Assembly: GCF_044704955.1 (NCBI RefSeq)
Contig: NC_091981.1
Location: forward strand, 196,974,001-197,038,000
Direction of reading: 5' to 3'
DNA: 64,000 nucleotides
From: Pristiophorus japonicus
Taxonomy: Eukaryota
The translations under genes and the position numbers were made by a program. This document shows, one piece after another, positions 1 through 63,711 of the stretch. How positions within the stretch are numbered: the stretch's first letter is position 1; each line of letters opens with the position of its first letter. The notes under the pieces are model-generated. The model had not been told where the DNA came from. It saw nothing but the letters and a program-made list of their open reading frames with translations, and did no database searches.

Positions 1-709
1 CCCCCTCCCCACAACCCCCCGGACTACATTTGATGCATAGTGCAGGCTTCCGATCGCCTTCCAAAGCCCCGCACCCACCCGGGCTTGATTTGATGGATAG
101 TGCAGGCTTGTGATGCCTTACGATCATCTTCCACAGCACCCCACCTCCCCCCAATCGGGCTTCTTTTCTTTTGCAGCCGAGCCCTGAGCCCCTGTGTCCA
201 GGCGCGGGACCGATTCTGCCGGCCAATGCTCCGACCCTCGAACCCTGTTTGCAGACGTTCGGTGATGGCGTGTCAGTTGAAACAATATGAAAAGTTACAG
301 AATTCCATCAAACTTCCATTTACTGCATTATAAGGTAAAAAAAAAATCTTTATTATGTATATTTAAGTGTTCTTGACCCCCTCCAAAACTTCGCTGAAAA
401 ACAATGGTGTATTTCTGCACTGATTTTTCAATGTGCGCTGCTTTTTCTTAACTCACCAGAAGGTTTTTCGGAAGTGGTCAGATACACCGACCTAGGAGAA
501 ATTTTTTGGGAGCAAATTTTCATAATTGACAAAAACTGGCAGAGACATCGGATTACGCCCCCATGACTCAAAAAAAACTAACCTGAAAAAATCTTAACTA
601 ACTCAGTTATGCTGCCGCAGTTGCATTGGGGAAATTTAAATTTTTTAAACTTACGCCAAAAAAAGCAGCCAAGCCAAAAAAGGGCGCAAATCACGGGAAA
701 ATTGAGCCC
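1..709. mobile_element. Right end of a GGGC-terminal non-autonomous DNA transposon (PIF/Harbinger-like MITE)
   Basis: Ends ...gggaaaattgagccc, similar to the terminus aaacttgggccc of the 57820-59291 element. The left end lies outside the window. Confidence 0.5.
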
Positions 710-11025: not shown

Positions 11026-11233
11026 GGTTATGTATTTAACCCCTTGTAACCTTGTAACCTGCATCACACCTGTCCACCAGAGGGCCTACCTGTTGGAGTC
11101 CCAAGGAACCCCAGTATCCCTTGAGCAGGCCATCCATGAGGTACCTGCACTCTGGAACTACAATAAAGGAGCTAAGGTCACACTTGCTCATTACACACAG
11201 TACTCAGTCTGACCATTTATTATGAGTGTAACA
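11026..11233 (+). repeat. 5' LTR of the Gypsy element
   Basis: Direct repeat of 15283-15497. It starts (g)gttatgtattt with the TG mutated, ends tgtaaca and contains aataaa. Confidence 0.93.
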
Positions 11234-14200
11234 ATTGACGAAGAGGTAACGAACCATGCGAAAATGCAAAGAACAGTCAGCATCCTGGAGAAATTCTCAG
11301 AGGGGGACGATTGGGAGGCCTTCGTGGAGAGACCAATACTTCATAGCCAACGAGCTGAAAGGGGACGAGAACGTGACCAAATGAAGGGCGATCCTCAGAA
11401 CTGTCTGTGGGGCCACAACTTATGGCCTCATGAAGGATCTCCTGGTCCTGGCTAAACCAACAGAGAAATCCTACGAAGAACTGTGTACGCTGGTCCGGGA
11501 ACACCTAAATCCTAAGGAAAGTGTTTTGATGGTGAGATATTGGTTCTACATGTGTCAACGATCGGAGGGCCAGGAAGCTACATCATCGAACTAAGGCGCC
11601 TTTGCAGGACATTGTGAGTTTGAGGGATTCCAAGAACAAATGCTCAGAGTCTTTTTTGTACTGGGCATTGGACATGAGACAATCCTTCGCAAACTGTTGA
11701 CTGTAGAAACTCCGAATGTGAGTAAAGCCATAACGATAGCCCAGGCATTTATATCCACCAGCGACAACACCAAGCAGGTTTCACAGAAGACGTTTTGGCC
11801 AGTATTGTACATAAAGTAACATCGGTTTTGAGCAGAAATGTACAGGGCAGAATGTACACACCGGCTGCCACGGCCCGACCTCAAATGACCCAGAGTCCGC
11901 CATCATCTGTTAAAGCGAGGCAGTTAACATCCTGTTGGCACTGCGGGGGTGATCATCGGCCCCATCAATGCCACTTTAAACACTATGCCTGCAATGGCTG
12001 CAGAGCAATGGGACACCTCCAATGAATGTGCAGGCGAGCTGCAAACCCTGAAAAGAACCACGTTGCAGAGGAAGATCGGTCCACAGTGGATCAGACGGAA
12101 TTGGAAACTCATACTGAGGAGGCAGAGGTGTACGAGGTACACACGTTCATGACGAAATGCCCACCAATAATGTTGAAAGTTGAACTGAATGGTATTCCAG
12201 TGTCTATGGAGCTGGACACGGGGGCAAGTCAGTCCATAATGAGTAAAACGGCCTTCGACTTGATGTGGGGGAAGAAGGCACATAGGCCCAAGCTCAGCCC
12301 CATTCACACCAAACTAAGGACTTATACAAAGGAACTAATCCCTGTAATTGGCAGTGCTGAAGTCAAAGTCCCCTATGATGGAGCAGTACACGAACTCCCG
12401 CTGTGCATTGTGCCAGAGGATGGCCCCACGTTGTTTGGCAGAAGCTGGCTGGGGAAAATCTGCTGGAACTGGGACAATAAGCGAGCGCTCTCGTCAGTTG
12501 ATGACACCACATGTATCCAGGTTCCAAGCAAATTCCCTTCGTTATTTGAGCCAGGCATTGGAAGTTTCTCAGGGGCGAAAGTGCAGATCCATTTGATTCC
12601 CGGTACGCGACCCATCCACCACAAGGCTCGGGTGGTACTGTACATGATGCGTGAAAAAGTGGAAATCGAGCTGGACAGGCTGTAGCGTCAAGGCATCATC
12701 GCGCCGGTGGAGTTCAATGACTGGCCCAGTCCGATTGTTCCTGTACTCAAGGAGGACGGTACGGTTAGAATTTGCGGTGATTTTTAAGTAACGATTAACC
12801 GTTTTTCGCTGCAGGACCAGTACCCGCTACCCAAGGCAGACGGCCTATTTGCGACCCTGGCTGGAGGGAAGACGTTCACCAAGCTGGACCTGACCTCGGC
12901 CTACATGATGCAGGAGCTGGAGGAGCCGTCGAAAGACCTCACCTGCATCAACACGCACAAACGTCTGTTTATTTGCAACCGGTGCTCGTTCGGGATTCGA
13001 TTGGCTGCAGTGATCTTCCAGCAGGACATGGAAAGCCTGCTAAAGTCGGTTCCTTGTACAGTGTTCTTCCAGGACGACATATTAGTTAAAGGTTGAGACA
13101 CCATGGATCACTTGAAGAACCTGGAGAAGGTTCTTAGTCAGTTGGATCGAATGGAGCTCAGGTTGAAATGCTCGATGTGTGTTTTCCTGGCACAGGACGT
13201 CGAATTCTTAGGAAGGAGGATCGCAGCAGACAGCATCAGACCCACCGACACCAAGATGGAGGCCATCAAAAAGGCGCCGCGACCACGGAATGTGACCGAG
13301 CTGCGGTCGTTTCTGGGACTCCTTAACTACTTTGGTAATTTCCTACCTGGGTTAAGCACTCTGCTAGAAGCCCTGCATGCGCTACTGCGCAAGAGAGACG
13401 ACTAGGTATGGGGGAATTCACAAGAGGCTGCCTTTAAGAAAGCCATAAATTTACTGCGTTCTAACAAACTGTTTGTCCTGTATAACCCATGTAAACGACT
13501 AGTGTTAGCTTACGATGCATCGTCATACAGGGTCGGGTGTGTGTTACAACAGGCTAATGAATCGGGAATTTTTCAACCAGTTGCGTATGCATCCAGGAGC
13601 TTGTCCAAGACTGAAAGGGCCTACAGCATGGTTGAAAAAGAGGCTCTGGTGTACGTTTACAGGGTAAAAAAAATGAACCAGTACTTTGTTTGGCCTCAAG
13701 TTCGAGCTTGAAACTGACCTATTCTCGGAGAGCAAAGGGATCAATATCAATGCCTCTGCCCGCATCCAAAGATGGGCGCTCATACAACCATATAATTTGC
13801 CACAGACTGGGCACAGAGAACTGCGCAGATGCTCTCAGTCATCTACCATTGCTCACCACCAGGGTGGAAATGGCACAGCCAACGGACTTACTCGTGGTCA
13901 TGGAGGCATTTGAGAACGAGAAATTCCACGTTACGGCCTGCCAGATCAGGACCTGGACCAGCCAGGATCCTTTACTGTCCCTGGTAAAAAACTGTATCCT
14001 CCATGGGAGCTGGTCCAGTGTCCCAGTGGAGATGCAGGAAGCGATTAAGCTATTCCACAGATGCAAAGATAGCTGTCCCTGCAGGCGGGCTGTCTCTTGT
14101 GGGGCAATCACGTAATCTTGCCCAAGAAAGGCAGAGACACATTTATTGGGGAACTGCACAGCACTCACCCAGGCATCATGATGATGAAAGCCATAGCCAG

Positions 14201-15282
14201 ATCCCATGTGTGGTGGCCAGGCATCGACTCAGATTTAGAGTCATGTATGCGCCAGTGCAACGCTTGTTTACAGTTGAGCAATGCACCCAGAAAGGCACCG
14301 CTATGATTATGGTCCTGGCCATCCAAACCGTGGTGGAGGATCCATGCAGGCCCATTCCTAGGCAAAATGCTTTTGGTAGTCGTGGATTCTTACTAAAAGT
14401 GAATCGAATGTGCAATAATGTCTGGAAGCACGTCCACGGCCACCATTGAAAGTCTAAGAGCTATGTTTGCCACGCACGGCCTGCCCGACGTCCTAGTCAA
14501 TGATAATGGGCCGTGCTTCACAAGTGCCGAATTCAAAGAGTTCATGGGATCAAACATGTCACATCTGCGCCGTTCAAGCCCGCATCCAACCGTCAGGCAG
14601 AACGGACAGTTCAGACCACCAAGCAAAGTTTGAAACGCGTGTCGGAAGGCTCCCTGCAGACCCGGTTGTCCCGAGTACTGCTCAGCTACCGCACCAGACC
14701 TCACGCACTCACAGGGATTCCCCCAGCCGAGCTGCTCATGAAAAGGATGCTTAAAACAAGGCTCTCTCTGGTCCACCTTGATCTATATGATCACGTGGAG
14801 GACAAGCGACATCAACAGAGTGTGTACCATGACCGCGCAAACTTGTCACGCGATATTGAGATTAATGATCCTGTGTTTGTGCTCAATTATGGACATGGTC
14901 CCAAATGGCTCACTGGCACGGTCACAGCCAAAGAGGGGAGTAGGGTGTTTCAGGTCAAACTGACCAATGGACAAACATACAGAAAACACTTGGACCAAAT
15001 TAAACTGCGGTTCACCAACAGCTACGTACAACCTGAAGAGGACACCCACCAACTTTGACCTTCCAACACACACACACAAGTGGCAACTGACATCACAGTT
15101 GACCACAAAACAGAACTCATCATCCCCAGCAGCCCGGCAAGGCTGGCTGCCCAACAGCCCAATGAAGAACTGACCAACCCAACCACACCAACATTTGTAC
15201 CGAGAAGATCGACAAGGGAGCGCAAAGCCCCAGATCATCTCACCTTGTAAATAAGTGCATTGTTGACTTCACAGGGGAGTGA

Positions 15283-24274: not shown

Positions 24275-24385
24275 ATGGTTCTGAGGAGGGATTCTATACT
24301 CAAAACATTGAGAAACTTGTGCTCTCTCAACAGATGCTGTCTGACCTGCCGAGTGTTCCAGCCTTTTCTGTTTTTGTTTGAAATA
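24275..24385 (+). mobile_element. Degenerate copy of the Penelope-associated hammerhead-bearing short repeat
   Basis: ctgagga...aaaacattg followed by cagatgctgtctgacctgccgagtgttccagccttttctgtttt, homologous to 29531-29716. Confidence 0.6.
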
Positions 24386-27770: not shown

Positions 27771-29530
27771 AATGAAATCTAACATTATTTTGACCCATAG
27801 TTCGCAAGTGTTTTCCTGTATTGTCATTTTCTACCACAGACTAACTGCAAAATACTAAATTGGAACAGCAGCTTCCAAGAAGTCTGGCATTATGAATTGA
27901 ACTCCATTTTGTGGATGATCCCATCCCTCATTCACATTCATTTAGGATCATTAAAATCCTTTTCTATAAAACACTTACACCATCTTTATTTGTTCATAAA
28001 ATTCAAAATCTTGGGTTTTCAAAAAGAATTGAATAAGACCCCTTTCAGGAAACTGATGGATAAAGTGAAAGCTCATGGGAAACAAGATGCTGATGTAAAG
28101 TGGATTGTTACTTGGTTACAAGAAACAGAGGATAATTATTAATTACAATAGTTTTAACTTGGCATCCACAAGGAGCAGAGTCCCACCAAGATCAATCGAG
28201 AGATTTATTGACGACCTTGAGAAAAGTTTTATAAACAATGTCCAAGTTTGCATAAGAAAAAATATTCTGTGGAATAGCAAGATGTTCTAATTAGAGGGGT
28301 TAAAATCTAAATAATAACTATTTCACACCAGAATTGTTAAATTATAGTCTGTAGGTTAAATGAAAGTAAACAGAATGGAATTTCTGGATTCCATAGCTAG
28401 TGATGTATTTGGTTTGGTGACAAGGTCAAAGATAAGCACAATCTATCCAGATGCTAGAAGAGGACCTATGCTTGGTCCCAGAAACCACAGCTTTAATCTC
28501 TTTCTCTCAATTTCCACCTTGATTGCATCCATCTATTTTATGATTCTACTATGATCAGCGTCGTTAACTTTCCTTGCTTGTTCTTGAATAACAACTTGCA
28601 TTTCTTATAGCATCTTCAATGAATAAAATGTAGAAAAACTTCTCAAGGTGTGTCACTCAAGCTCCAAATATACCACTGCACATGATTTTCCTCAACCCTA
28701 CACCTACATTGTGTTGAAACGAAGAGTGTTTGGAAAGCTACTCTAATTCATTCTTTCCCAGGACCTCAAAACTATAGATTTCCTTATTTCCCTAAGTCAT
28801 TCCTTCTGCCTACCACTTCAGGCTTTTAAAATCCAATCACTACTTCCTGATTCACCTTGTATTCTCTTTTGCATTGTTCAACTTAGTGGTGACTGCATTA
28901 TGGCCCTTGGCTGTGGATCTTGGTATCTAAATAAACAGCTTTATTTTAAAGTTTCCTATGTTCCAATTTATGTTCTATTTTAAAGAGTATTTTCAAGCCA
29001 TTAATAAGTTCCCAACTTCAGGATTTTTATGGAAAATGTGCAGATTTTTTCAAACACATAGCACTGATGTTGGCAAACGATTATTAAATAACTTGGAAAA
29101 TAATGAGAAAAATGTCCTACCCTTTTTAACTGCTGTTTAACTATCAATTGACCCTTTGATATGTATGTTCAATCAATTACTAAGAAATTCTACTTTTTCT
29201 GGCTTCTTAAAATATACCCTGGTAACCCTAATCTGCAAAATATATAATTGGCTTGATACTCAGAATTTCTAATCATCTGATCTGTAGTCTCCAAGTTATT
29301 CCTACTACATCTAAAATGTAAGTGCTCCAAGCAAATTATAAATTGGATAAAATATATCTTGCCATCATAAAAGAGTGAAAATTGGAAACATCTGCTCAAA
29401 GCCTGGGGCCTGGGCCAGTAGAGGTCACTTCACTGCAGGCGTCCATCTTGGAGTCACCTTTGTACATGTCCTGTCTTAATTTGTACTGACACATTCGTGC
29501 ACTTTTTCCTGTCAGTGACACATTTTATAC

Positions 29531-29716
29531 AATAAAAACAGAAAATGCTGGAAATACCCAGCAGGTATTCTCTCAAACTTTAACAGTTCTGACGCAAGGT
29601 CATCAACCTGAAACGTTAACTCTGTTTTTCTCTCCATAGATGCTGCCTAACCTGCTGAGTATTTCCAGCATTTTCTGTTTTTATTTCAGATTTCCAGCAT
29701 ATGCAGTATTTCGCAG
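29531..29716 (+). mobile_element. Short non-autonomous Penelope-like element with inverted end and minimal hammerhead motif
   Basis: 29531-29566 is the reverse complement of about 29650-29685. The core aacagtt-CTGACGc-aaggtcatcaacct-GAAACGTT-aactctgtt spans 29582-29626. Candidate TSD ttataca at 29525-29531 and 29717-29723. Confidence 0.7.
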
Positions 29717-32287
29717 TTATACACAACTTATATAGTTCTCCAGAAGCTCAAGAACTGCTAACTGAAAGGGAATCAATCAGCAATGAGAAATTGTTAGAAA
29801 TGCATATCATACTTTCATCTAAACATAAAAAGACTGATGAAATTCAGTTGATTTGCATGTCGTTGGTAAAATTATTTAAAAAACATTGAAAATCTTTTGG
29901 GACCAAAATGTTTCGGATTTGTTTTGGAAATAATTGTGGAACTCACTCAATACTTTAGAACAACCGAGAAGAACAATTATTATTCAAAAATGTGCTTTAT
30001 GATTTAACCACCTGTTTCCAAAGGACATGATTCTCACTATCAGCCACATTACCATGGGAAGTACTAAAGGCATGGGGAAGGGTGGAGGGCAGGTGTTTTT
30101 CTACACAGTGGATTGAAGGAACAGTTACACTTGACACTTCAGGGCTCACCAAGCCCACAGTGTTTTAATTGAAGAATTCTACACAGCAATTTTAACCTTA
30201 CCTGCCTGGTGGAAAATGGGTGGGTAGTTAAAATTGACTGGAAGACTTGCCTGCCAAAATCCTACACTAATACCACTGTCTTGAAGTTTAATCCGCTTTT
30301 CTGAGCAGCCAGAATACGTTAAGAATGCAGATTGGGATCCGATGATACCATCAGCCCCCAACTGCAATTTTAATTGGTTTCCTAAACAGAGAAGACAGTG
30401 TGGCATTCCTGCCAGGTGATGATAGTGGAAAGAGGAGGGTTAGAATAGGACCAAACAGGTACGTTTTTTAACTTTTATTTACTTTTCTTACGAAGCCAGG
30501 AGGAGCAGGAATGCAAGACTTTCCCCAATTCCCTTCCCCCCGACTTAACTTGTGGCGCGAATGTCCCTTTGGTGCCGGCCGACAGCCTTCTGCGACCTGA
30601 AATTCCACTCTGGCGGTATGCAGGTGTGGCCCGGAAGTTAAAATCGCCTGGGCCTCATGATGCAGAGGTCAGGTGGGGGCCGGGAATAATGGGGGTGTGG
30701 ATGTGCAACTTCCTCAACACCCCCTCCCACCCACCCTATTCGCGCTCCCAGTTCAATTGCATCAATGATATCTGAGATGGTTTCAGGACTTCATCAATTA
30801 AATTGAGATATTATTCAAATCTTGGTCGGACAGAACTAAGCACAAAATCTTTCAGTTCAAAGAATTACTGAATGCAACTGGAAAAGTTAAAATTTTAGGA
30901 AAGAATCTATAAAATACTTGATGCACAAACATGTTTAAGAGCTTATGTAAATGATACTAAACTACAGTAACAACAGCAAAGTTGAAAATTAAAGTTGAGA
31001 GTTAAAGGCGACAATTTCTGTGGTCTACTCCCGATTTCCTAGCACAGCTTCATTAAAATCTTGTGGAAATCGTGCAAATGGCTGTTTTAAGCTAAACTGT
31101 ATGGTCATCAGAATCTACTATTCACAACCAATGGTGGATGTGAGGAAAACTAAACGGTCCTCTGTGTAAAAAAAACTAACAAATAACATGCAGCCCTCTG
31201 ATGCAGTCCTGCCATTTGGGCAAGGCTGCTGCCACATGAACACGATTGAATGGCATGATTTATTTTTGTGCAACTGGATAATGCTAAATATTTACAGTAC
31301 ACTATTCCATTGCACCATTATTCCAATTCAGGGCTCCAAAATGTGTTTCCCCATGTGCACCCTCTCTCTAAGGCCCAACACATGTACTCAACATATCACA
31401 CTGCCCAATATATTATTTCCAAGGTTCATGGTACAAGAGCCATCATATGTTGTGTGTGTTTTAGCTATGTCCAGCACTTATTAAAAATACAACATTCTTT
31501 CTGAGCATTGCTGTCAAAATGTGCTTCAAGAACACTATCCTAATGCCAAATAAGATAGTTACTGTAACTAAGTAAATGGTACTTCGATGACCACATAATT
31601 TGCTGTTTCTTTTGCCACTTTGTACTCCAGTGCATAGATTCTTTATGCATCATTGTAATATCTATACAGTTTTTGTAACAAAAATCATGTATGCCAGTTT
31701 TGAGCTATGAAAAGCATTTGTAAAACATTGCATTATATGAGACATCAGTTTATCACACTTGATTTATACATTGAATTCACAATAAGTAACATGCAACAGT
31801 CTGTGCTCACATAACAGGAAAGTAATGGGCAAAAACCATTAAGAGAAGCTCCGTCTGATTCAATTTAAATTATTATTCTCAATGACGATGTGGGGAACAG
31901 CAGACAATTACTTACACCAACTCCACTAAATGTGAAGCCTTCACACAGTTTTGTTTTCGATTCTAAATTGGAGTTGTAGATTCAGGAAACTATCCAGCTT
32001 AAATGGCATGAGGTTAAGTAGTCATTTCTGCTTGCCTATAATCTCAGTGGCGTGGTATACAAGTTCACACTCACTCCTCTCCAACCAGATCTTTGCAAGT
32101 TCTAACATAAAAGTTACTAACGTTATCAAACCACACACATTTTGTGTCACCAAACCATGCCTTGTGGCTTCAAAAATGCAACTATATAGTGCCAACAGAT
32201 CAATGGTACCAAAAGAAATCACCCAGCTTCCTTTTTACAATTTATTACATGTTCAGAACTGCACCTAAGCAAACAAAATGGACCTAC

Positions 32288-44345: not shown

Positions 44346-44731
44346 ATAATAATTGCTCCGTTTCATCCCCGAAGGGACCTACATTTACTTTAGCCACTCT
44401 TTTCCTTTTTATATACCTGTATATAGTCTTACTATCTGTTTTTATATTTTGTGCTAGTTTACTTTCATAATCTATCTTCCCTTTCCTTATTATTTTTTTG
44501 GTTGTTCTTTGTCGGCTTTTAAAATTTTCCCAATCTTCTGGCCTCCCACAAGTTTTGTCCACTTTGTATGCTGTTGTTTTCAATTTGATACCCTCCTTTA
44601 TTTCCTTAGTTAGCCACGGATGGTTATCCCTTCTTTTACAGTCCTTCCTTCTCATTGGAATATATTTTTGTTGAGAATAATGAAATATCTCCTTAAATAT
44701 CCGTCACTGCTCATCAACCGTCCCACACCTC

Positions 44732-47700
44732 GGAATTGGAGCTGAGGGTGCATTCACTCTGGAGCATCCACGATGCTGAGAATGACGTGAGTAGCACGTG
44801 TAGCGAGTTGGTCTTATTGCAGGTGAAGGGTCCACAGCCAGCTAGGGAATGGAAGACCAGCAGGAAAAGCAGTGCAAGAAAGGTAGTGCAGGGGTCCCCT
44901 GTGGTCATCCCCCTGCAAAACAGATACACTGCTTTGAGTACTGTTGAGGGGAATGACTCATCAGGGGAGGGCAGCAGCAGCCAAGTTCATTGCACCGTGG
45001 CTGGCTCTGTTGCACAGGAGGGCAGGAAAAAGAGTGGGAGAACGATAGTGATAGGGTATTCAATTGTAAGGGCAATAGATAGGCGTTTCTGCGGCCGCAA
45101 CCGAGACTCCAGGATGGTATGTTGCCTCCCTGGTGCAAGGGTCAAGGATGTCTCGGAGCGGGTGCAGGACATTCTAAAAAGGGAGGGAGAACAGCCAGTT
45201 GTCGTGGTGCACATTGGTACCAACGACATAGGTAAAAAAAGGGATGAGGTCCTACGAGACGAATTTAAGGAGCTAGGAGCTAAATTAAAAAGTAGGACCT
45301 CAAAAGTAGTAATCTCGGGATTGCTACCAGTGCCACATGCTAGTCAGAGTAGGAATTGCAGGATAGCGCAGATGAATACGTGGCTTGAGCAGTGGTGCAG
45401 CAGGGAGGGATTAAAATTCCTGGGGCATTGGAACCGGTTCTGGGAGAGGTGGGACCAGTACAAACCGGATGGTCTGCACCTGGGCAGGACCAGAACCAAT
45501 GTCCAAGGGGGAGTGTTTGTTAGTGCTGTTGGAGAGGAGTTAAACTAATATGGCAGGGGGATGGGAACCAATGCAGGGAGACAGAGGGAAACAAAAAGGA
45601 GACAAAAGCTAAAGACAGAAAGGAGATGAGTAAAAGTGGAGGGCAGAGAAACCCAAGGCAAAAAACAAAAAGGGCCACTGAATATAAAGGGGCTGCAGGA
45701 GGGGTCAAAACTAAAAATCATGATTTAAAAACTAGGATTAAAACACTCCACCTAAATGCACGCAGCATTCAAAATAAAGTAAATGAGTTGATGGCACAAA
45801 TCATTACAAATGGGTATGATTTGGTGGCCATTACAGAAACATGGTTGCAGGGTGGTCAAGACTGGGAATTAAACATACAGGGGTATCTGACGATTCGGAA
45901 AGATAGACAAGAAGGGAAAGGAGGTGGGGTAGCTCTGTTAATAAAGGATGATATCAGGGCAGTTGTGAGAGACGATATTGGCTCTAATGAACAAAATGTT
46001 GAATCATTGTGGGTGGAGATTAGAGATAGTAAGGGGAAAAAGTCACAGCTGGGCGTAGTTTATAGGCCCCCAAATAATAACATCATGGTGGGGCGGGCAA
46101 TAATCAAGGGAATAATGGAGGCATGTGAAAAAGGAACGGCAGTAGTCATTGGGGATTTTAACCTACATATCGATTGGTCAACTCAAATCGCACGGGGTAG
46201 CCTGGAGGAGGAATTCATAGAATGCATACGGGATTGTTTCTTAGAACAGTATGTAACAGAACCTACAAGGGAGCAAGCTATCTTAGATCTGGTCTTGTGT
46301 AATGAGACAGGAAAAATAAACGATCTCCTAGTAAAAGATCCTCTCGGAATGAGTGATCACAGTATGGTTTAATTTGTAATACAGATTGAGGGTGAAGAAG
46401 TTGTGTCAGAAATGAGCATACTATGTTTAAACAAAGGGGACTACAGTGGGATGAGGGCAGAGTTGGCTAAAGTAGACTGGAAACACAGACTAAACGGTGG
46501 CACAATTGAGAAACAGTGGAGGACTTTTAAGGGGCTCTTTCATAGTGCGCAACAAAAATATATTCCAGTGAAAAAGGGCGGTAAGAGAAGGGATAACCAG
46601 CCGTGGATAACCAAGGAAATAAAGGAGAGTATCAAATCAAAGACCAATGCGTATAAGGTGGCCAAGGTTAGTGGGAAACTAGAGGATTGGGAAAATTTTA
46701 AACAACAGCAAAGAATTACTAAAAAAGCAATAAAGAAAGGAAAGATAGATTTCGAAGGTAAACTTGCGCAAAACATAAAAAGCTTTTACAGATATATAAA
46801 ACGGAAGAGAGTGACTAAAGTAAATGTTGGTCCCTTAGAAGATGAGAAGGGGGATTTAATAATGGGAAATGTGGAAATGACTGAAACCTTAAACAATTAT
46901 TTTGCTTCGGTCTTCACAGTGGAAGACACAAAAACCATGCCAAAAATTGCTGGTCACGGGAATGTGGGAAAGGAGGACCTTGAGACAATCACTATCACTA
47001 GGGGGGTAGTGCTGGACAGGCTAATGGGACTCAAGGTAGACAGGTCCCCTGGTCCTGATGAAATGCATCCCGGGTATTAAAAGAGATGGCGGAAGTTATA
47101 GCAGATGCATTCGTTATAATCTACCAAAATTCTCTGGACTCTGGGGAGGTACCAGCGGATTGGAAAGCAGCTAATGTAATGCCTCTGTTTAAAAAAGGGG
47201 GCAGACAAAAGGCAGGTAACTATAGGCCGGTTAGTTTAACATCTGTGGAGGGGAAAATGCTTGAAACTATCATTACGGAAGAAATAGCGGGACATCTAGA
47301 TAGGAATAGTGCAATCAAGCAGACGCAGCATGGATTCATGAAGGGGAAATCATGTTTAACTAATTACTGGAATTCTTTGAGGATATAACGAGCATGGTGG
47401 ATAGAGGTGTACCGATGGATGTGGTATATTTAGATTTCCAAAAGGCATTCGATAAGGTGCCACACAAAAGGTTACTGCAGAAGATAGAGGTACGCGGAGT
47501 CAGAGGAAATGTATTAGCATGGATAGACAATTGGCTGGGGAACAGAAAGCAGAGAGTCGGGATAAATGGGTCCTTTTCGGGTTGGAAATCGGTGGTTAGT
47601 GGTGTGCCACAGGGATCGGTGCTGGGACCACACCTGTTTATAATATACATAGATGACCTGGAAGAGGGGACAGAGTGTCGTGTCACAAAATTTGCGGATG

Positions 47701-48630
47701 ACACAAAGATTAGTGGGAAAGCGGGTTGTGTAGAGGACACAGAGAGGCTGCATAGAGATTTGGATAGGTTAAGCAAATGGGCGAAGGTTTGGCAGATGGA
47801 ATACAATGTCAGAAAGTGTGAGGTCATCCACCTTGGGGAAAAAAACAGTAAAAGGGAATATTATTTGAATGGGGAGAAATTACAACATGCTGAGATGCAG
47901 AGGGACCTGGGGGCCCTTGTGCATGAATCCCAAAAAGTTAGTTTGCAGGTGCAGCAGGTAATCAGGAAGGCGAATGAAATGTTGGCCTTCATTGCGAGAG
48001 GGATGGAGTACAAAAGCAGGGAGGTCCTGTTGCAACTGTATAGGGTATTGGTAAGGCCGCACCTGGAGTACTGCATGCAGTTTTGGTCACCTTACTTAAG
48101 GAAGGATATACTGGCTTTGGAGGGGGTGCAGAGACGATTCACTGGGCTGATTCCAGAGATGAGGGGATTACCTCATGATGATAGATTGAGTAGACTGGGT
48201 CTTTACTCGTTGGAGTTCAGAAGGATGAGGGGTGATCTTATAGAAACATTTAAAATCATGAAAGGGATAGAGAAGATAGAGGCAGAGATGTTGTTTCCAC
48301 TGGTAGGGGAGGCTAGAACTAGGGGGCACAACCTCAAAATACGGGGGAGCCAATTTAAAACCGAGTTGAGAAGGAATTTCTTCTCCCAAAGGGTTGTGAA
48401 TCTATGGAATTCTCTGCCCAAGGAAGCAGTTGAGGCTAGCTCATTGAATGTATTCAAATCACAGCTAGATAGATTTTTAACCAATAAGGAAATTAAGGGT
48501 TACGGGGAGAGGGCAGGTAAGTGGAGCTGAGTCCATGGCCAGATCAGCCATGATCTTATTGAATGGCGGAGTAGGCTCGAGGGGCTAGATGGCCTACTCC
48601 TGTTCCTAATTCTTATGTTCTTATGTTCTT
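44732..48630 (+). mobile_element. Near full-length CR1 LINE with ORF1 (SGNH esterase) and frameshifted ORF2
   Basis: ORF1 44736-45548 has G(Y)S, PGA, HIGTND and DGLH. ORF2 pieces are 45626-46372 (APE), 46403-47080 and 47394-48530 (RT). TSD ACACCTC at 44725-44731 and 48631-48637. Confidence 0.93.
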
Positions 48631-50841: not shown

Positions 50842-53800
50842 TGTTATGTATGGAGAAAGAGTCAGACTGAACACTGTGAACTCAAAGTAAAGTGTGACCT
50901 AAGTCTTTTATTGCAGGTCTCCAGAGTGCCTCTCCAACCTGTGAAGCCTCCATAAATGCCTGTGCTCCCAAGGGATTATGGGATTGCTTGGGTCTCCAGG
51001 GGATGAGCCCTCTGGTGGCTGTCCAGAGGAAATACAAGTTTACATATATAACAACACTCCCTGCCGCGCATCCCCCCGCCCTGCCAAAGTCAACAATGTA
51101 ACTATTTATAAAGGTGAGTCGATCTGGGGCCCTTCTTGCCCTGGTTGATCGTCTCGGTGTGAAAGCTGGTAGTGGTGAATCAACTGTTGGGCCCTCGCTG
51201 GGCTGCTGTGCTACTGGCCTTGCTGGTTGGTCCTGCTAGGCTGCTGTGGATGATGGGTTCTGCTTCGTGGTCAGCCGTGGTGCCGGTTGCCACTGGTGTG
51301 CCTGTTGGTGTGTCAAAGAAGGTAGGATCCAAAGTGGGTTGCTCAGGATAGTCCGTGAATCTGAGTTTGATTTGGTCCAAGTGTTTCCGGCGAATGAGTC
51401 CATTTGAAAGTTTGACCCGAAACACCCTGCTCCCCTCTTTGGCCATGACAGTGTGGGAAGCCACTTGGGACCTTGTCCATAATTCAATATAAATACAGGA
51501 TCATTGATTTCAATCTCGCGTCACACATTTGCCCTATCATGGTATGTACTCTGTTGAAGCCGTCTGCTCTCGACCTGTTCAGAATGAACTAGCAAGAGTC
51601 TTGTCTTAAGTGCTCTTTTCATGAGCAGTTCAGCAACTGGGATCCCAATAAGCGAGTGGGGTCTTGTGCGGTAGCTAAGCAGGACTCGGGATAGGCGAGT
51701 CTGCAGTGAGCCTTCCATTACCCTTTTCAAGCCTGCTTGATGATTTGCACTGCTCTCTCTGCCTGACCATTGGACGCTGGTTTAAACGGGGCATTTGTGA
51801 CATGTTTGATCCCGTTGCGGGTCATGAATTCTTTGAAGTCAACACTGGTAAAAAATGGCCCGTTGTTGCTCACCAGGACATCGGGTAGTGGTCGTGCTAG
51901 CCGACATTATCTCACATTCAATCCACTTGGAGTACGCGTCTACAACCACAAGGAACATTTTACCCAAGAACAGGTCTGCATAGTCGACGTGTACCCTAGA
52001 CCACGATTTGGAGGGCCAAGACCATAAACTTAGCGGCGCCTCCCTGGGTACATTGCTTAACTGTGAACATGTATTACATCTGTGCACGCAGGACTCTAAG
52101 TCCGCATCAATACCGGGCCACCACACGTGGGATCTGGCTATCGCTTTCCTCATTACGATGCCTGGGTGGGGACTGTGGAGATCATTGATGAAGGTGTCTC
52201 TGCCCTTCTTGGGAACCACTACTCGATTGCCCCACAGAAGGCAGTCTGCCTGTAAAGATATTTCATCTTTGCACCGCTGAAACGGCTTTATCTCTTCCTG
52301 CATTTCCACTGGGACACTGGCCCAGCTCCTGTGAAGCACATAGTTTTTGATGAGGGACAATAAGGGGTCCTGGCTTGTCCAGGTTTTGATCTGCCAGGCA
52401 GTGACGGGTGATTGCGCACTCTCAAATGCTTCCATAACCATGGCTAGATCTGCAGGCTGCGCCATTTCCACCCCCGTGGTGGGCAATGGCAGCCTACTGA
52501 GAGTATCGGCGCAGTTGTCTGTGCCTGGCCTGTGACGGATGGCGTAGTTGTATGCGGACAACATGAGTGCCCATCTCTGGATGCGGGCCGATGTATTGGT
52601 ATTTATCCCTTTACTCTCGGAAAACATTAGTGGCTTACGGTCAGTTTCCAATTCGAATTTTAGTAGATATTGATGCATTTTCTTTACCCCACAGACACAC
52701 GCTAACACTTCTTGTTCAATCATGCTGCAGGCTCTCTCAGCCTTAGACAGACTCCTGGATGCATAAGCAACTGGTTGCAATTTCCCAAAATCATTAGCTT
52801 GTTGTGATACGCACGCGACGCCATATGACGCCGCATCACATGCTAGTACCAAACGCTTACATGGATCATACAATACAAGCAATTTGTTTGAGCATAACAA
52901 TTTTCTCGCTTTTACAAAGGCATTTTCTTGGCTTTTGCCCCAAACCCATTCGTCCCTTTACGCAGTAAGACATGTAGTGGTTCTGACAGTGTGCTGAGAC
53001 CCGGTAAGAAGTTACCAAAGTAGTTCAGGAGTCCGAGAAACAACAGCTGCTCTGTCATGTTCTGTGGCCTCGGTGCGTTCTCGATTGCCTCTGTCTTTGA
53101 ATCGGTGGGTCTGATGCCATCCTCCGCGATCCTCCTCCCCAGGAACTCCATTTCAGGCACCAGGAAAATGCACTTCGAGCGTTTTAACCTGAGCCCCACA
53201 CAATTGAGTCGACTAAGAACCTCCTCCAGGTTCTGCAGATGCTCGACTGTGTCCCGACCTGTAACCAAGATCTCGTCCTGGAAGACCACGGTGCGCAGGA
53301 CCGACTTCAGTAAACTTTCCATGTTTCTCTAGAATATCGCCGCCACTGATCGAATTCCAAACGGGCATCTGTTATAAATGAAAAGACCTTTGTGCGTGTT
53401 GATGCAGGTGAGGGCCTTCAATGATTCCTCCAGTTCCTGCATCATGTAGGCTGAAGTCAAATCCAGCTTCATGAACGGCTTTCCTCCCGCCAGCATCGCA
53501 AAGATGTCGTCGGCCTTTGGTAGTCGGTATTGGTCCTGCAGGGAGAAACGATTGATAGTTACTTTGTAATCGCCACAGATTCTGATGGCGCCGTCTCCCT
53601 TGAGGACAATAGGACTGGCCCAACCGTTGAACTCGATTGGTGAGATGATGTCCTCTCGTTGCAGTGATCTCCACTCTCTCTCTCATCATGTACAGTACTG
53701 CTCTCGCCTTGTGATGGATGGGTTGCACCCCCGGAGTTAGGTGGATCTGCACTTTTGCTCCTTGGAATTTCCCGATGCCTGGTTTGAACAGTGACGGGAA

Positions 53801-55318
53801 CTTGTTTACGACCTGGGCACACGATGTGTTGTCAGCGGGTGATAGCACTCAGACGTCGTCCCAGTTCCAGCGTATCTTTTCCAGCCAGATCCTGCCGAGC
53901 AGCATGGGACCATTGCTCGGTATCACCCAGAGTGGTGCTCCATTGTAAGAGACCTTTACAGTAGCACTGCCGATTATGGGAATGAGTTCCTTTGTATAAG
54001 TTCTTAGTTTCGTGCGAATTGGAGTTAAGACTGGCCATGAGGCCTTGCTGCACCACAGTTTCTCGAAAGTCTTTTTGCCCATGATGGACTGGCTCGCGCC
54101 CGTGTTCAGCTCCATTGACACTAGGAGTCCATTTAGCTTATCATTCAGCATTATCGAGGGACAATTCGTGGTGAATGTGTGCACCCCATGTACCTCTGCC
54201 TCCTTGGTCTGAGGCTCTGGTTCGTCGCGATCCTCCGTGGATCTGTCCTCCTCTGCATCAAGGTGGTTTGCAGGTTTAACATTATTTGCAGCTCACCTGC
54301 ACACTCGTTGGAGGTGACCATTGTTCCACAGCCCTTGCAAACATATCCTTTGAATGAATGGAAAAGATAATCACCCCAGCAGCGCCAACAAGGTGTTAAT
54401 GGCCTTGCATTCATCACCCTTGATGGTGGACTCTGAGACATCTGCGGATGCGCAGCTGCAGGCATGTGTGACCTGCCCTCTATGTTGCAATTTGAAAACA
54501 CAACACTTTGTTCACAATACTTGTCGCAGCACTTGTGTGCTGAGAGATTTGCTTAGTATTGTCACTGGTGCCAATGAACGCCTGGGCTATCACTGTGGCC
54601 TTACTCAAAGTTGGCGTCTCTACAGTCAAATGTTTTCGAAGTATGGTTTCATGGCCAATGCCAAGTACGAAAAAGTCTCTGAGCATGTGCTCCAAATGTC
54701 CTTCAAATTCGCAATGTCCTGCAAGGCGTCTTAGCTTGGCGACATAACTCGCCACTTCCTGGCCTTCAGACCTTTTGTTGGTGTAGAACCAGTACCTCGC
54801 CATCAGAATGCTTTCCTTCGGGTTCAAATGCTCTCGGACCACTGTGCACAAATCATCGTCCGATTTCTCTGTGGGTTTCGCTGGAGTAAGCAGATTCTTC
54901 ATGAGGCCAGACGTTGGTGCCCCACAGACAGTGAGGAGGATCTCCCTTCATTTGGCAGCGTTCTCTTCTCCATCTAGCTTGTTGGCTATGAAGTATTGGT
55001 CGAGTCGCTCCACAAAGGTTTCCCAATCATCTCCCTCCAAGAATTTCTCCAGGATGCCCACTGTTCCCTGCATCTTTGGGTTCACTATCGGTATCTCATC
55101 GCCAGTTGTTATATATGGAGAAAGAGTCAGACTGAACTCTGTGAGCTCAAAGTAAAGTGTGACCTTAGTCTTTTATTGCAGATCTCCAGAGTACCTCTCC
55201 AACCTGTGAGGCCTCCTTAAATACCTGTGCTCCCAAGGGATTATGGGATCCCCTGGGTCTCCAGGGGATGAGCCCTCTGGTGGTTGTACAGAGTAAATAC
55301 AAGTTTACATATATAACA
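50842..55318 (-). mobile_element. Full-length Ty3/Gypsy (Mag-clade-like) LTR retrotransposon, antisense, decayed
   Basis: LTRs 50842-51053 and 55107-55318, TSD AAAGG at 50837-50841 and 55319-55323, PBS tggcgatgag (reverse complement at about 55095-55104). ORFs 54480-54902 gag, 53849-54184 protease, 52912-53322 RT and 51839-52900 RH/INT are homologous to the element at 11026-15497. Confidence 0.95.
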
Positions 55319-55328
55319 AAAGGCACTA

Positions 55329-55774
55329 CAGGTGCGACATCCAAAATCTGGAAACCTCAGTCGGTCGGGCTGAGGCCGGGCGGGGGATGGGGGCTGTTGT
55401 CGGTTGGGCCGAGGCCAGGGAGGGATGTCGGACCGCCGAAGGTCCGGGGGGAGGGGTGCAGTCAGTCGGGCCAAGGCCAGAGCAGGGTGGGGGGGAAGTC
55501 GGGCTGATGCCAGGGAGGGTCGATCAGGCTGCCGGAGATTGGACAGGCTGCTGGAGGTCAGGGGGATCAGTCAGACCGAGGCCAGGGATGGGACGGTCGA
55601 GCCGCAGAAGGTGGGGTGAGGGGCGGGGGCTGAGGCAGGGGAGTCTGAATTTCGGAACATTTTCCAGTTTCCGGATGACCGCGCCACGGATCGACCTGAT
55701 ATCCGGATTCCGGAATATTCTGGATTTCAGAATATTGCGGATTCCAGAACTTCGGATTTTGGACGTCGCACCTG
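55329..55774. mobile_element. Tigger/pogo-like (Tc1/mariner superfamily) MITE
   Basis: TIR caggtgcgacatccaaaatctg / cggattttggacgtcgcacctg. The left flank is TA and the right flank is CA. Confidence 0.75.
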
Positions 55775-55777
55775 CAT

Positions 55778-55910
55778 GAAAGTTCTGACAAAGGGTCATT
55801 GACCTGAAACATTAACTCAGTTTCTCTTCATACATGCTGCCTGACCCACTGAGATTTCTAGTTTTCTGTTTTTATTTCAAATTCCAACATCTGCAGTATT
55901 TTGCTTTTGT
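55778..55910 (+). mobile_element. Penelope-associated hammerhead-bearing short repeat copy
   Basis: aagtt-CTGACaA-agggtcattgacct-GAAACaTT-aact, followed by the same body as 29620-29716. Confidence 0.7.
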
Positions 55911-55934
55911 ATATATGCAAGTTGTTGTTTTTGT

Positions 55935-60717: not shown

Positions 60718-61068
60718 CAGGTTGAACCTCCCTTATCTAGAACTCCCTTATCCGGAACCAGCCTTCATCCAGAACCATTCCCAGGTGGCACATGCGCAGT
60801 ACTCCGACATGAACAAATCGAAGTCCTTCCTCGCTGCTGACTCCCACAATCGCTGGCCTGATCCCACGATCCATCGCCCTCCCGCACCCCCCCACCCCCA
60901 CCCCATGATCTCTGTGCTACACACCCAGCCCCTAGCCAGCCAGCCCCGATATTCCTTTGCTCAGTACCTGTACCATCCAAATTTAACATCACCATCCCTC
61001 ATCCAGAAAAATCCCTTAACCAGACCAGGCCAGATCCCGAAGATTCTGGATAAGGGAGGTTTAATCTG
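60718..61068. mobile_element. Tigger/pogo-like MITE with TA TSD
   Basis: ta|caggttgaacctcccttatctagaa ... ttctggataagggaggtttaatctg|ta. Confidence 0.85.
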
Positions 61069-61349
61069 TACAGGCTTCACAGAAAGTTATGTGCCACTGG
61101 AGTTTAAATTTTAGGTGCGGGCCCTGAACCAGTTGTGACAGAGGAGCACCATGAAGAAATTTAAACTCATCTTTTGCTTTCCAGGTATTGATGCATCGAC
61201 TGTATAATTTCAGAAATTTCTGCTTTATTTCAGATTTTCCAGCATTATAATTTCCAGTTTTATCATTTTTACTCATTATATACCAGGGCTGATTGCCCAA
61301 TTGGGTGCTCCTTGCTGGGAGCAGCTTATCGCGTGTGTTACTGTGTTAA

Positions 61350-61710: not shown

Positions 61711-62341
61711 CTCACAATAAAGGATTACAGGAAAGCCTCTCTTTCTAAATTTTCACATTATAAAACGCAGTGGTTACTTGTGCAAATCGAGCTGTCGTGT
61801 TTCATACATTACAGCAATGACTACATTTCAAAACTACTTCATTGGTTATAAAGCACATTGTGAAGTCATATAAATGCAAGTGTTTCTTTCTTCGCATTCT
61901 GTTCATTATATGAGAGAAGTCAGTGCTAGGGAATGGAACATTTTCCAGTTTGAGCATCTACTCCCAGCATCATTCCCTCCCTGTCTTGGGCACACAGAAA
62001 GAGCTGCAAAGTAAAATGTCCTCTACTCTGCCCCCAATAATGTGCCTTTCATTCTATCCAGTATGAGTTTGGATTTGAAATCTTATTAAAGGACAGGAGT
62101 GCCAAAAACTTGTTCACCCTTTCTTTGAGTACAGTTACCTACTGGAATTGAGAACGTTAGGGAAAGAAACATTTGCATTTATATGACTTCACAATGCACT
62201 TTATAACCAATGAAGTAGTTTTGAAATGTAGTCACTGCTGTAATGTATGAAACACGACAGCTGGATTTGTGCACGTAACCACTGCAGTTTATAATGTGAA
62301 AATTTAGAAAGAGAGGCTTCCCTGTAATCCTTTACTGTGAG
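61711..62341. repeat. 180-bp inverted repeat (61711-61890 and 62162-62341) with a 271-bp spacer
   Basis: The arms align by eye with about 12 mismatches and no indels. Confidence 0.92.
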
Positions 62342-62690: not shown

Positions 62691-63134
62691 ATAGTTTAAA
62701 TTGGGACAAATTGTCTCCTTCTATGCTATAATTTCTATGATTCTCTTTTGGACTGGGGAAGAAAGTCCTCCATGAATTGCATTTGTCCGTTTTTATTGTC
62801 ATTGGTTACTGGTTTTGGTAAGCCAATTGGATTCCACTATGCAAAACAGAGCCACGATTACAGAAAACTGCAGCTACATATAGAGGCTCGCCAAATTCAG
62901 AGTGTAAAACAAAAGGTACCGGATCCACTGAGAAACTGGGGCTCTTTTTTACTGGAGCAGAGAAGCTGGAGGTGACTTGATTGAGCTGTTACAAATTGCT
63001 AAGTATATTGACAAGAGAAAGAGGGGAAAACTATTTCTGCTGGTTAAGTAAGATATCGTCTACTCTGCCCCCAAATATGTGCCTCGCTCAGATGGTAGGA
63101 TAGAATTCTCTACCACACTAAGTAAATACTAAGG

Positions 63135-63259
63135 AATAAAAACAGAAAATGCTGGAAATCTCAGCAGGTCAGGCAGCATCTGTGCAGAAAAAGCAAAGTT
63201 AACATTTCGGGTTGATGACTTTTATTCCAGGTTCCAGAAGCCACAGTATTTTGCTTTTG
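63135..63259. mobile_element. Collapsed Penelope-associated short element (inverted body plus sense tail) with TSD
   Basis: aataaaaacagaaaatgctgg...gttaacatttcgggttgatgac (antisense hammerhead region), then cagtattttgcttttg. Direct repeat aaatactaaggaa at 63124-63136 and 63260-63272. Confidence 0.7.
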
Positions 63260-63711
63260 AAATACTAAGGAAGTTGGTAACTAGAGGGCAAATGTATCAT
63301 CAGTGTAAAGAATAAAAGGAGAAGTAAGCAGATTTTTTTAAATGCAAATTGTTATTGGGACATGAAATACCCTACCATAAACCATGGTGGAAACAGAAAC
63401 CATAATACCTTTTAAAAAGGAAGTGGATAAATATTTGAAAAATAAATAAAAGTGTACGGTTAAAGGGCAGGAGAAAGGAACTAAGTGAGTGGCTCTTTCA
63501 GAGAGCTGCTACAAGAGAGAGAGGCTGAATGGCCTCCTTCTGTATTGTGAAATTCTATTGAAGCTATTTTCACCTTCACCGCCTGGGAAGTAATCTGGAG
63601 GAGGGAATCCTTTGTAGACATCAATGGTATGAACATCAGACGGGCTCTATCATGGGTGGTCGATTGGCTCTGCTACATTAGTTCCTGGGCGATGAAATTA
63701 CCTCCGATAAT

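What the first reader, a model, noticed from the sequence alone, without database searches (positions are those of the whole stretch)
29525..29723. Short non-autonomous retroelement family carrying a minimal hammerhead ribozyme (retrozyme/Penelope-type)
Seen in sequence: aacagtt-CUGACGc-A[aggu caucaaccu]-GAAAC-GUU^-aacucuguu. This is stem I (gtt/aac, aaca/tgtt), a CUGANGA-like core, a stem II hairpin, GAAA, and a loop-less stem III whose AACGUU is palindromic. The element also has a 36-bp inverted end and a 7-bp candidate TSD (ttataca). Established: Penelope-like elements carry minimal type-I hammerheads with a vestigial, palindromic stem III thought to work as dimers. Inference: this is a roughly 190-bp mobilised ribozyme-bearing unit with five copies in 64 kb (about 24275, 29531, 55778, 61127 and 63135), so it is a very high-copy family. 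Each copy here has at least one core mutation, so individual activity is doubtful.
Basis: partly seen in the sequence, partly recalled or inferred. Interest (0 to 1): 0.7.

Follow-up and report, generated by a model that had tools for sequence, protein, structure and literature searches.

The report
Penelope retrotransposon stub with broken hammerhead
This short repeat is the clipped, partly mirror-imaged end of a very abundant, known kind of jumping gene (a Penelope-like retrotransposon) and carries a tiny self-cutting RNA motif that is predicted to be broken in this copy; it is ordinary genomic debris, although the fixed ends of such copies likely record where the element's RNA starts and where its copying begins.

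Summary
The hammerhead motif, the 36-bp inverted piece, the 7-bp duplication and five window copies are real. They are not a 190-bp non-autonomous unit or a retrozyme. The same end lies just behind a GIY-YIG endonuclease in 23 of 29 loci, and one 3.16-kb copy has end-ORF-end inside a 13-bp duplication. So this is a truncated end of an autonomous Penelope-like element (Neptune/Nematis-type zinc linker), roughly 1.5x10^5 insertions genome-wide (extrapolated). The family core is intact (thousands of exact matches; pair 10.1-11.1 is G-C, G-U or A-U in 59 of 59, never A-C); the focal copy has A9C and a broken stem II pair. Copies end at two fixed sites about 34 nt apart; head-to-head pairs carry exactly one tail in 26 of 31, never two; 5' ends pile up at the ribozyme's first bases, not at the cut bond. 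Likely mechanism: priming at two internal sites, one per nicked strand, with run-off at the RNA start. The layout is published. This scan noted the same on other shark-type genomes many times. Cleavage and RNA start are untested.

The parts
29525..29531 (+). Left copy of the likely 7-bp target-site duplication (last A shared with the inverted arm)
   Evidence: duplications of >=7 bp flank 14 of 30 inverted pairs against 0.7 expected
29531..29566 (-). Inverted, 5'-truncated arm (family positions 66-100), ending at the tail-less 3' site
29567..29584 (+). Junction and likely degenerate pLTR sequence just upstream of the ribozyme (11-nt match to a subfamily variant)
   Evidence: inference
29585..29621 (+). 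Minimal type I hammerhead motif; A9C in the core, one stem II pair broken; predicted cut after 29617
29622..29685 (+). Leader between ribozyme and first fixed 3' end (about position 100)
29686..29717 (+). About 34-nt tail up to the second fixed 3' end (about position 134); begins with a degenerate repeat of 29661-29682
29717..29723 (+). Right copy of the likely target-site duplication
24278..24384 (+). Older, diverged copy without tail
55781..55912 (+). Single-arm copy from position 1 to the tail end; G8A and G16.2A (CpG decay)
61132..61246 (+). Heavily decayed copy
   Evidence: (E 2e-4)
63124..63272 (.). Second head-to-head insertion: inverted arm 15-100 (63135-63219) joined to a direct arm 94-133 (63220-63259), 13-bp duplication at 63124 and 63260; no CUGA core

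Best explanation
The locus is a short, 5'-truncated, head-to-head insertion of the ribozyme-bearing end (pLTR end plus tail) of an autonomous endonuclease-positive Penelope-like retrotransposon, likely made when the element's protein nicked both target strands and primed two short cDNAs on the element's RNA. Shown: the end is joined to RT and GIY-YIG coding sequence in long copies; 3' ends are fixed at two sites (about 100 and 134); inverted pairs carry one tail at most; duplications are of variable length; 5' ends pile up at positions -1 to 7. Inferred: (1) the two 3' ends are internal reverse-transcription start sites, as shown in vitro for the Anolis Poseidon element; (2) each nicked strand primes at one of them, and the two cDNAs join by microhomology, often in the self-complementary stems of the ribozyme; (3) the RNA starts at or near the first base of stem I, so most products are short run-off copies of the leader; (4) the hammerhead was kept by selection in the source elements and would cut only as a dimer or with the protein's help; (5) this copy, with A9C, is dead and cannot be transcribed or moved on its own.
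For: Link to ORF: 23 of 29 endonuclease-selected loci have the end 130-550 nt downstream on the same strand; C-x4-C-x2-C linker, VYC..C..YIG, Pfam GIY-YIG E 0.004 and RVT_1 E 1e-5 on decayed frames, both under the curated cut-off; 43% identity to an RT+HTH+GIY-YIG protein P0001. In 7 of 29 N-terminus-selected loci the whole ribozyme+tail lies about 500 nt before the query and runs on into the ORF. L310: 3.16-kb end-ORF-end copy in a 13-bp duplication, starting at -1..+1. 3' ends of 198 pieces: 64 at 95-109 and 97 at 125-144. Pairs: tail+no tail 21, tail+short 5, no tail on either arm 5, two tails 0 of 31; duplication >=7 bp in 14 of 30 pairs (null mean 0.7) and 13 of 115 singles (null 1.85). 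In 7 of 21 pairs neither arm is contained in the other, as at window 63135. 5'-end rate 0.057 per nt at -1..7 against 0.011 elsewhere in sets not chosen on the ribozyme (14 events, 2.7 expected, P 1e-6; P 6e-4 against the adjacent bin), 23/288 against 8/698 in ribozyme-chosen sets. Core: 1962 and 941 exact 33-mers, reversed controls 0; in 63 copies not chosen on the ribozyme 10.1-11.1 is G-U 21, G-C 20, A-U 18, A-C 0, 4 gapped, while the 35 nt upstream carry many subfamily differences.
Against: No RNA evidence: only assembled contigs were on offer, which cannot show starts or cuts. The RNA start rests on end statistics, an initiator-like word (recalled consensus) and one full-length copy; the same bases also read as a 3' splice site, as in D. 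virilis Penelope. Only 13 of 115 single-arm copies show a duplication. 14 of 21 pairs have the tail-less arm nested in the other, which fold-back could also give. The arm-versus-arm test did not separate the models (0.126 vs 0.121 differences, P 0.48). A few junction types recur (5-7/37 three times, 0/38 twice, 22/2 twice). The 10.1-11.1 covariation may be one evolutionary event, and G-U can arise by CpG decay. BLAST ends are uncertain by a few bases, and several locus sets were chosen by similarity. No RT phylogeny was built.
Confidence: 0.8

Rival explanations
1. A distinct non-autonomous mini-element (SINE/MITE-like unit of about 190-200 bp) that is itself transcribed and moved in trans by the Penelope protein.
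For: Very high copy number; pairs of 125-270 bp with duplications; a few junction types recur; pLTR sequence suffices for mobilisation in trans in a rotifer (PMC3846280, passages).
Against: 28 different junction combinations in 31 pairs; the tail is on either arm; the focal junction is unique in the sample; recurring junctions sit on microhomologies of stems I and II.
Confidence: 0.06
2. A non-LTR retrozyme: tandem hammerhead units that self-cleave, circularise and re-insert.
For: Type I hammerhead; retrozymes derive from pLTRs and are reported in one chondrichthyan (bioRxiv 10.64898/2026.07.22.740005).
Against: No window copy lies in a tandem array; none of 31 insertions in 1.264 Mb is an array of whole units, though one same-strand neighbour pair and one partial tandem (L267) were seen; ends do not fall at the cut bond (rate 0.016 at 31-38, between 0.007 and 0.020 in the neighbouring bins).
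Confidence: 0.02
3. Same element, but inverted pairs arise by fold-back or self-priming of one cDNA, and the 5' pile-up comes from a splice acceptor or from stalling at the protein-bound ribozyme rather than from the RNA start.
For: Self-priming was proposed for palindromic junctions (PMC3846280); the D. virilis intron ends at the 5' end of helix I (PMC4209133); the family has YAG plus a pyrimidine tract there; 14 of 21 pairs are nested.
Against: 7 of 21 pairs are not nested; no common upstream exon was found among 54 flanks, whose shared matches were inverted arms or other repeats; several copies start at positions 4-5, inside what a spliced RNA would keep; the full-length copy L310 starts at -1..+1.
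Confidence: 0.11
4. End of a DIRS element or a DNA transposon/MITE with terminal inverted repeats; the hammerhead likeness is chance.
For: Inverted ends; no Rfam hit; the isolated motif folds only modestly better than shuffles (z -1.2 to -2.2).
Against: Physical link to RT+GIY-YIG; the inverted arm is internal and variable; duplication length 7-13 bp; full core conserved with pair-keeping changes.
Confidence: 0.01

Closest known systems
Insertion units of EN+ Penelope-like elements: 5' truncation, partial tandem, adjacent inverted truncated pLTR, 30-40-bp tail at one end, variable TSD (PMC8557442; PMC3846280)
   Same: All of these features are found here.
   Different: Very short products dominate; about 10^5 insertions; strong pile-up of 5' ends at the ribozyme's first bases, which the passages read do not describe.
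Minimal hammerheads of metazoan PLEs (Cervera and de la Pena 2014, PMC4209133)
   Same: Type I, 4-bp helix I, extra nucleotide between 9 and 10.1, palindromic 15.2-16.2 without loop 3, mostly single dispersed motifs from truncated PLEs, dual motifs on opposite strands.
   Different: Pair 10.1-11.1 is often A-U or G-U instead of the usual G-C; the triplet is GUU; helix II has 5 bp. No activity test on this family.
Poseidon of Anolis carolinensis (Frangieh et al. 2024, PMC11167929)
   Same: Ribozyme at the pLTR-ORF junction; two adjacent internal RT start sites bounding the tail; both strands cut and extended; ribozyme cleavage not needed for insertion.
   Different: This element has the RT-EN zinc linker that Poseidon lacks; the long ORF seems to start about 170 nt after the ribozyme's first base, not in stem II (read; inference).
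Non-LTR retrozymes (bioRxiv 10.64898/2026.07.22.740005)
   Same: pLTR-related sequence with a type I hammerhead.
   Different: Defined by tandem units; not seen here.

Membership tests
EN+ Penelope-like element (family level) | Single ORF with RT and C-terminal GIY-YIG endonuclease | tested here: met
   (decayed frames; Pfam scores below the curated cut-off; colinear match to P0001 along L310-L312, L314)
EN+ Penelope-like element (family level) | [quoted passage not shown] | tested here: met
   VYC..C..C..YIG and downstream EH / CHF in L039, L045, L048 frames; definition from PMC8557442
EN+ Penelope-like element (family level) | pLTRs in partial tandem around the ORF | tested here: met
   L310 end-ORF-end; L309, L311, L312 partly
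EN+ Penelope-like element (family level) | Inverted truncated pLTR, 30-40-bp tail, variable TSD | tested here: met
Neptune clade | CX2-5CxxC zinc linker between RT and EN (also in Nematis in reduced form; absent in Penelope/Poseidon) | tested here: met
   C-x4-C-x2-C in L016, L033, L039, L045, L048, L310; PMC8557442 passages
Neptune clade | RT phylogeny groups with Neptune references | not tested
   No named reference sequences were on hand; PDB search gave no match
Minimal type I hammerhead (family) | Core CUGANGA / GAAA / NUH with helices I and II and palindromic helix III | tested here: met
   core intact in 32 of 63 copies not chosen on the ribozyme
Minimal type I hammerhead (focal copy) | Intact core | tested here: not met
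   A9C at 29595; C at position 9 is in 4 of the first 100 listed matches, like other decay (counted by hand)
Minimal type I hammerhead (family) | Stem covariation | tested here: inconclusive
   One pair covaries (10.1-11.1); other stem pairs are invariant; loop 2 varies
Minimal type I hammerhead (family) | Self-cleavage, as dimer or protein-assisted | not testable with these tools
   bench test needed
Non-LTR retrozyme | Tandem head-to-tail units, each with a hammerhead | tested here: not met
   (sample only, not genome-wide)
Non-LTR retrozyme | Circular RNA of unit length | not testable with these tools
   only contigs available
Non-autonomous unit (SINE/MITE-like) | Fixed boundaries and a shared junction among copies | tested here: not met
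   28 junction combinations in 31 pairs; 5' ends from beyond -230 to 108

The most novel reading that the evidence does not exclude
These stubs are the Penelope equivalent of strong-stop DNA: the RNA starts on the first base of the hammerhead, reverse transcription starts about 100 and 134 nt downstream at two copies of a duplicated signal, each nicked target strand uses a different one, and the two run-off cDNAs are joined through the ribozyme's own stems. This would explain the tail, the inverted pLTR and the huge excess of 135-nt copies in one model, with the ribozyme serving as the RNA's 5' cap-side fold and not as a cutter of the template.
Probability: 0.4. Interest if true: 0.5.

Novelty: new member of a known kind. 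Interest (0 to 1): 0.25.

Why it matters
As a locus it is ordinary debris of a known retrotransposon class. Its value is as a large fossil record: about 10^5 insertions whose ends test how Penelope-like elements make their tail and inverted ends, a point still open after the first in vitro study (PMC11167929). The one-tail-per-pair rule, the 5' pile-up at the ribozyme's front and the lack of ends at the cut bond give concrete predictions for 5' mapping and for reconstitution. It also warns that dispersed minimal hammerheads in such genomes should not be counted as retrozymes.

Tried and rejected
Rfam scan of the window at E<=5: no hammerhead family among 7 weak hits. Pfam on five decayed frames: 2 of 5 gave a weak family, 3 none. 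PDB sequence search with the RT frame: no match. ESM Atlas by features: HTH_animal / GIY-YIG clusters at 0.95-0.96, a lead only. A9C as a subfamily mark: rejected, 8 exact copies of the 37-mer and 4 of 100 listed. Search for other hammerhead families with GUC: 221 matches against 63 in the reversed control; most of the 100 listed are variants of this family, so no cross-family covariation test came of it. Pile-up at the cut bond: not seen. Common spliced exon upstream of stubs: not found. Arm-versus-arm similarity: uninformative because most differences arose after insertion. RNA: 24 runs listed, all contigs, shares 0.04-0.23; four laid runs of four coded organisms hold the family with the same tail boundary but show nothing on starts, cuts or expression. 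Folding: the lone motif, focal or intact, folds into a hairpin that pairs the core with the GUU side rather than the hammerhead shape, which fits an inactive monomer but is only a prediction. The dimer paper of Lunse et al. was not held; it was seen only as cited in a review. A PMC id recalled for it was a different paper. Ten segmental-duplicate or repeated loci were dropped before the counts. The genome sample stops at 1.264 Mb. Literature searches found no description of this family or of the 5' pile-up; Repbase and Dfam could not be searched, subscription papers are missing, and supplements (alignments of PMC4209133, family tables of the bioRxiv preprint) were not seen and may list it.
Full report
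Observation. Numbering from the A of AGUU (window 29585 = position 1): stem I 1-4 and 34-37, core CUGACG plus C at 5-11, an extra A at 12, stem II 13-25, GAAA 26-29, then CGU and U17, with the predicted cut after 29617. The 36-bp inverted piece is 97% complementary to 29650-29685. The 7-bp word stands at 29525 and 29717. A profile built from 29 other copies finds all five window copies and nothing in reversed sequence. Rfam has no hammerhead hit here at E<=5. The aaca/tgtt part of stem I is private to this copy; the family has four pairs.

Host and abundance. The genome has 5.9 Gb. That it is a shark-type genome is my inference from recalled repeat sequence and from the scan's other notes; no call names it. 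In 1.264 Mb taken without regard to the repeat (11 blocks and the window) there are 31 insertions, mean identity 88% to the family majority, which extrapolates to about 1.5x10^5; blocks range from none to many, so this is an order of magnitude. The window is about three times denser than average. Contigs of four other coded organisms hold the same family with the same tail boundary.

It is the end of an autonomous element. Of the 29 other best matches, ten run 79 nt or more upstream in shared sequence and three reach a GIY-YIG domain. Searching with that domain, 23 of 29 new loci have the ribozyme end 130-550 nt behind it on the same strand. The frames show RT motifs, a C-x4-C-x2-C linker and VYC..C..C..YIG with the later histidines. 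Pfam gives RVT_1 (E 1e-5) and GIY-YIG (E 0.004), both below the curated cut-offs on these decayed frames; an unnamed RT+HTH+GIY-YIG protein matches at 43%. Searching with the N-terminal region, 7 of 29 loci have the whole ribozyme and tail upstream, running on into the ORF. L310 is a complete 3.16-kb end-ORF-end insertion in a 13-bp duplication, starting at -1 to +1. The zinc linker excludes Penelope/Poseidon and points to Neptune or Nematis (PMC8557442, Introduction and passages); no RT tree was made.

Anatomy of the short copies. After dropping ten duplicate loci, 201 pieces were mapped. Of 198 not cut by a locus edge, 64 end at 95-109 and 97 at 125-144: two fixed 3' ends about 34 nt apart, the tail described for this class. 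The tail begins with a degenerate repeat of the 22 nt before the first end. Among 31 head-to-head pairs, 26 carry one tail, 5 none and none two; 14 of 30 have an exact duplication of 7-13 bp against 0.7 in shuffled pairings; singles 13 of 115 against 1.85. There are 28 junction combinations in 31 pairs; the recurring ones sit on microhomologies of stems I and II. In 7 of 21 tail/no-tail pairs neither arm is contained in the other; the window's 63135 copy (arms 15-100 and 94-133, 13-bp duplication) is a clear case. The focal copy is an ordinary pair: inverted arm 66-100, direct arm from about -14 to the tail end.

5' ends. In sets not chosen on the ribozyme, 14 ends fall at -1..7 where 2.7 are expected from the rate elsewhere (P 1e-6; P 6e-4 against the adjacent, busier bin); in ribozyme-chosen sets the rate is 23/288 against 8/698 just upstream. 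There is no excess at the cut bond. The bases at +1 read as an initiator with an AT-rich word 30 nt upstream (recalled consensus), but also as a 3' splice site, and in D. virilis Penelope an intron ends at helix I (PMC4209133). No common exon was found upstream of 54 such ends. RNA reads that could decide this were not on offer.

The ribozyme in the family. Exact 33-mers with the core and stem II number 1962 with U at 11.1 (A9 in 90 of the first 100 listed) and 941 with another base there (G-C in 87, A-C in 6 of the first 100; counted by hand; reversed controls 0). In 63 copies not chosen on the ribozyme, 10.1-11.1 is G-U 21, G-C 20, A-U 18, A-C 0, gapped 4; other variation in positions 1-37 is CpG decay or loop 2, whereas the 35 nt upstream carry many subfamily differences; 32 of 63 cores are intact. 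This fits selection on the motif in source elements and neutral decay in copies, but rests on one covarying pair. The lone motif is predicted to fold into a core-sequestering hairpin. Published minimal hammerheads do not cut as monomers and cut poorly as dimers (PMC4209133, parts 1-2 of 4 read); the Anolis one cuts only with protein and is not needed for insertion (PMC11167929, parts 1-2 of 4 read). The focal copy's A9C and broken stem II pair make activity unlikely.

Mechanism. Shown: linkage, two 3' ends, one-tail rule, duplications, 5' pile-up. Inferred from PMC11167929, where both strands are cut and extended and two internal start sites bound the tail: each nicked strand primes at one site, the cDNAs run towards the RNA's 5' end and are joined head to head. 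Inferred from the end statistics and L310: the RNA starts at the ribozyme's front, so short run-off copies are the main product. Confidence: about 0.97 for identity as a Penelope-like stub, about 0.6 for two-ended priming, about 0.5 for the RNA start.

Comparison and novelty. Truncation, inverted pLTR, tail and variable duplications are textbook for this class (PMC8557442; PMC3846280, passages), and dispersed minimal hammerheads from truncated copies were reported in 2014. Retrozymes are defined by tandem units (bioRxiv 10.64898/2026.07.22.740005, parts 1-3 of 5 read), not seen here. Promoter context was read in passages of PMC2377424 and dimer work only through a review (PMC6765202, passages). 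Six searches found no account of this family or of the 5' pile-up; repeat databases and supplements were not seen. The scan's own index had nothing by sequence but 156 notes in at least 22 genomes by words; the eight shown reach much the same reading. They are unchecked notes and not independent support. Verdict: real, a new member of a known kind, low interest as a locus, modest interest as mechanistic evidence.

Noticed in passing
window 11149-15269 and 51087-55192: Two diverged (71%) copies of an LTR-type retroelement in opposite orientation; Pfam finds aspartyl protease, RT RNase H and integrase zinc-binding domains.
   Followed up: partly
window 44697-48530 and many shorter copies: CR1-like LINE with an esterase (GDSL/OSK-like) ORF1, AP endonuclease and RT; most of the window is LINE debris.
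   Followed up: partly
window 61711-61890 and 62162-62341: Inverted repeat of 180 nt, 93% complementary, 271 nt apart; not part of this family by the profile scan.
   Followed up: no
window 55650-55770 and 60731-61070: Short self-complementary 15-17-nt repeats, like the inside of a small DNA transposon.
   Followed up: no
window 29661-29682 and 29690-29711: The tail starts with a degenerate direct repeat of the sequence before the first fixed end, so the two ends may follow two copies of one signal.
   Followed up: partly
L310 (G000:C15, about 71883230-71886390, minus strand): Complete 3.16-kb insertion with two hammerheads 3.0 kb apart and a 13-bp duplication; the ORF is broken by frameshifts and stops.
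   Followed up: yes
L311 728-1188 (oriented), L052 170-1258: Long inverted structures: a tail-bearing inverted arm in front of a full-length copy, and an RT segment inverted against the endonuclease part.
   Followed up: partly
L149, L150, L152-L154; L151, L155; L239, L240 (first 3.1 Mb of contig C1): Same-extent copies at several places, pointing to segmental duplications near the contig start; dropped from counts.
   Followed up: no
L180-L206, leader downstream of the ribozyme: A short upstream frame of about 27 codons ends at the tail end, and a pyrimidine tract with AG precedes the apparent start codon of the long ORF; read by eye.
   Followed up: no
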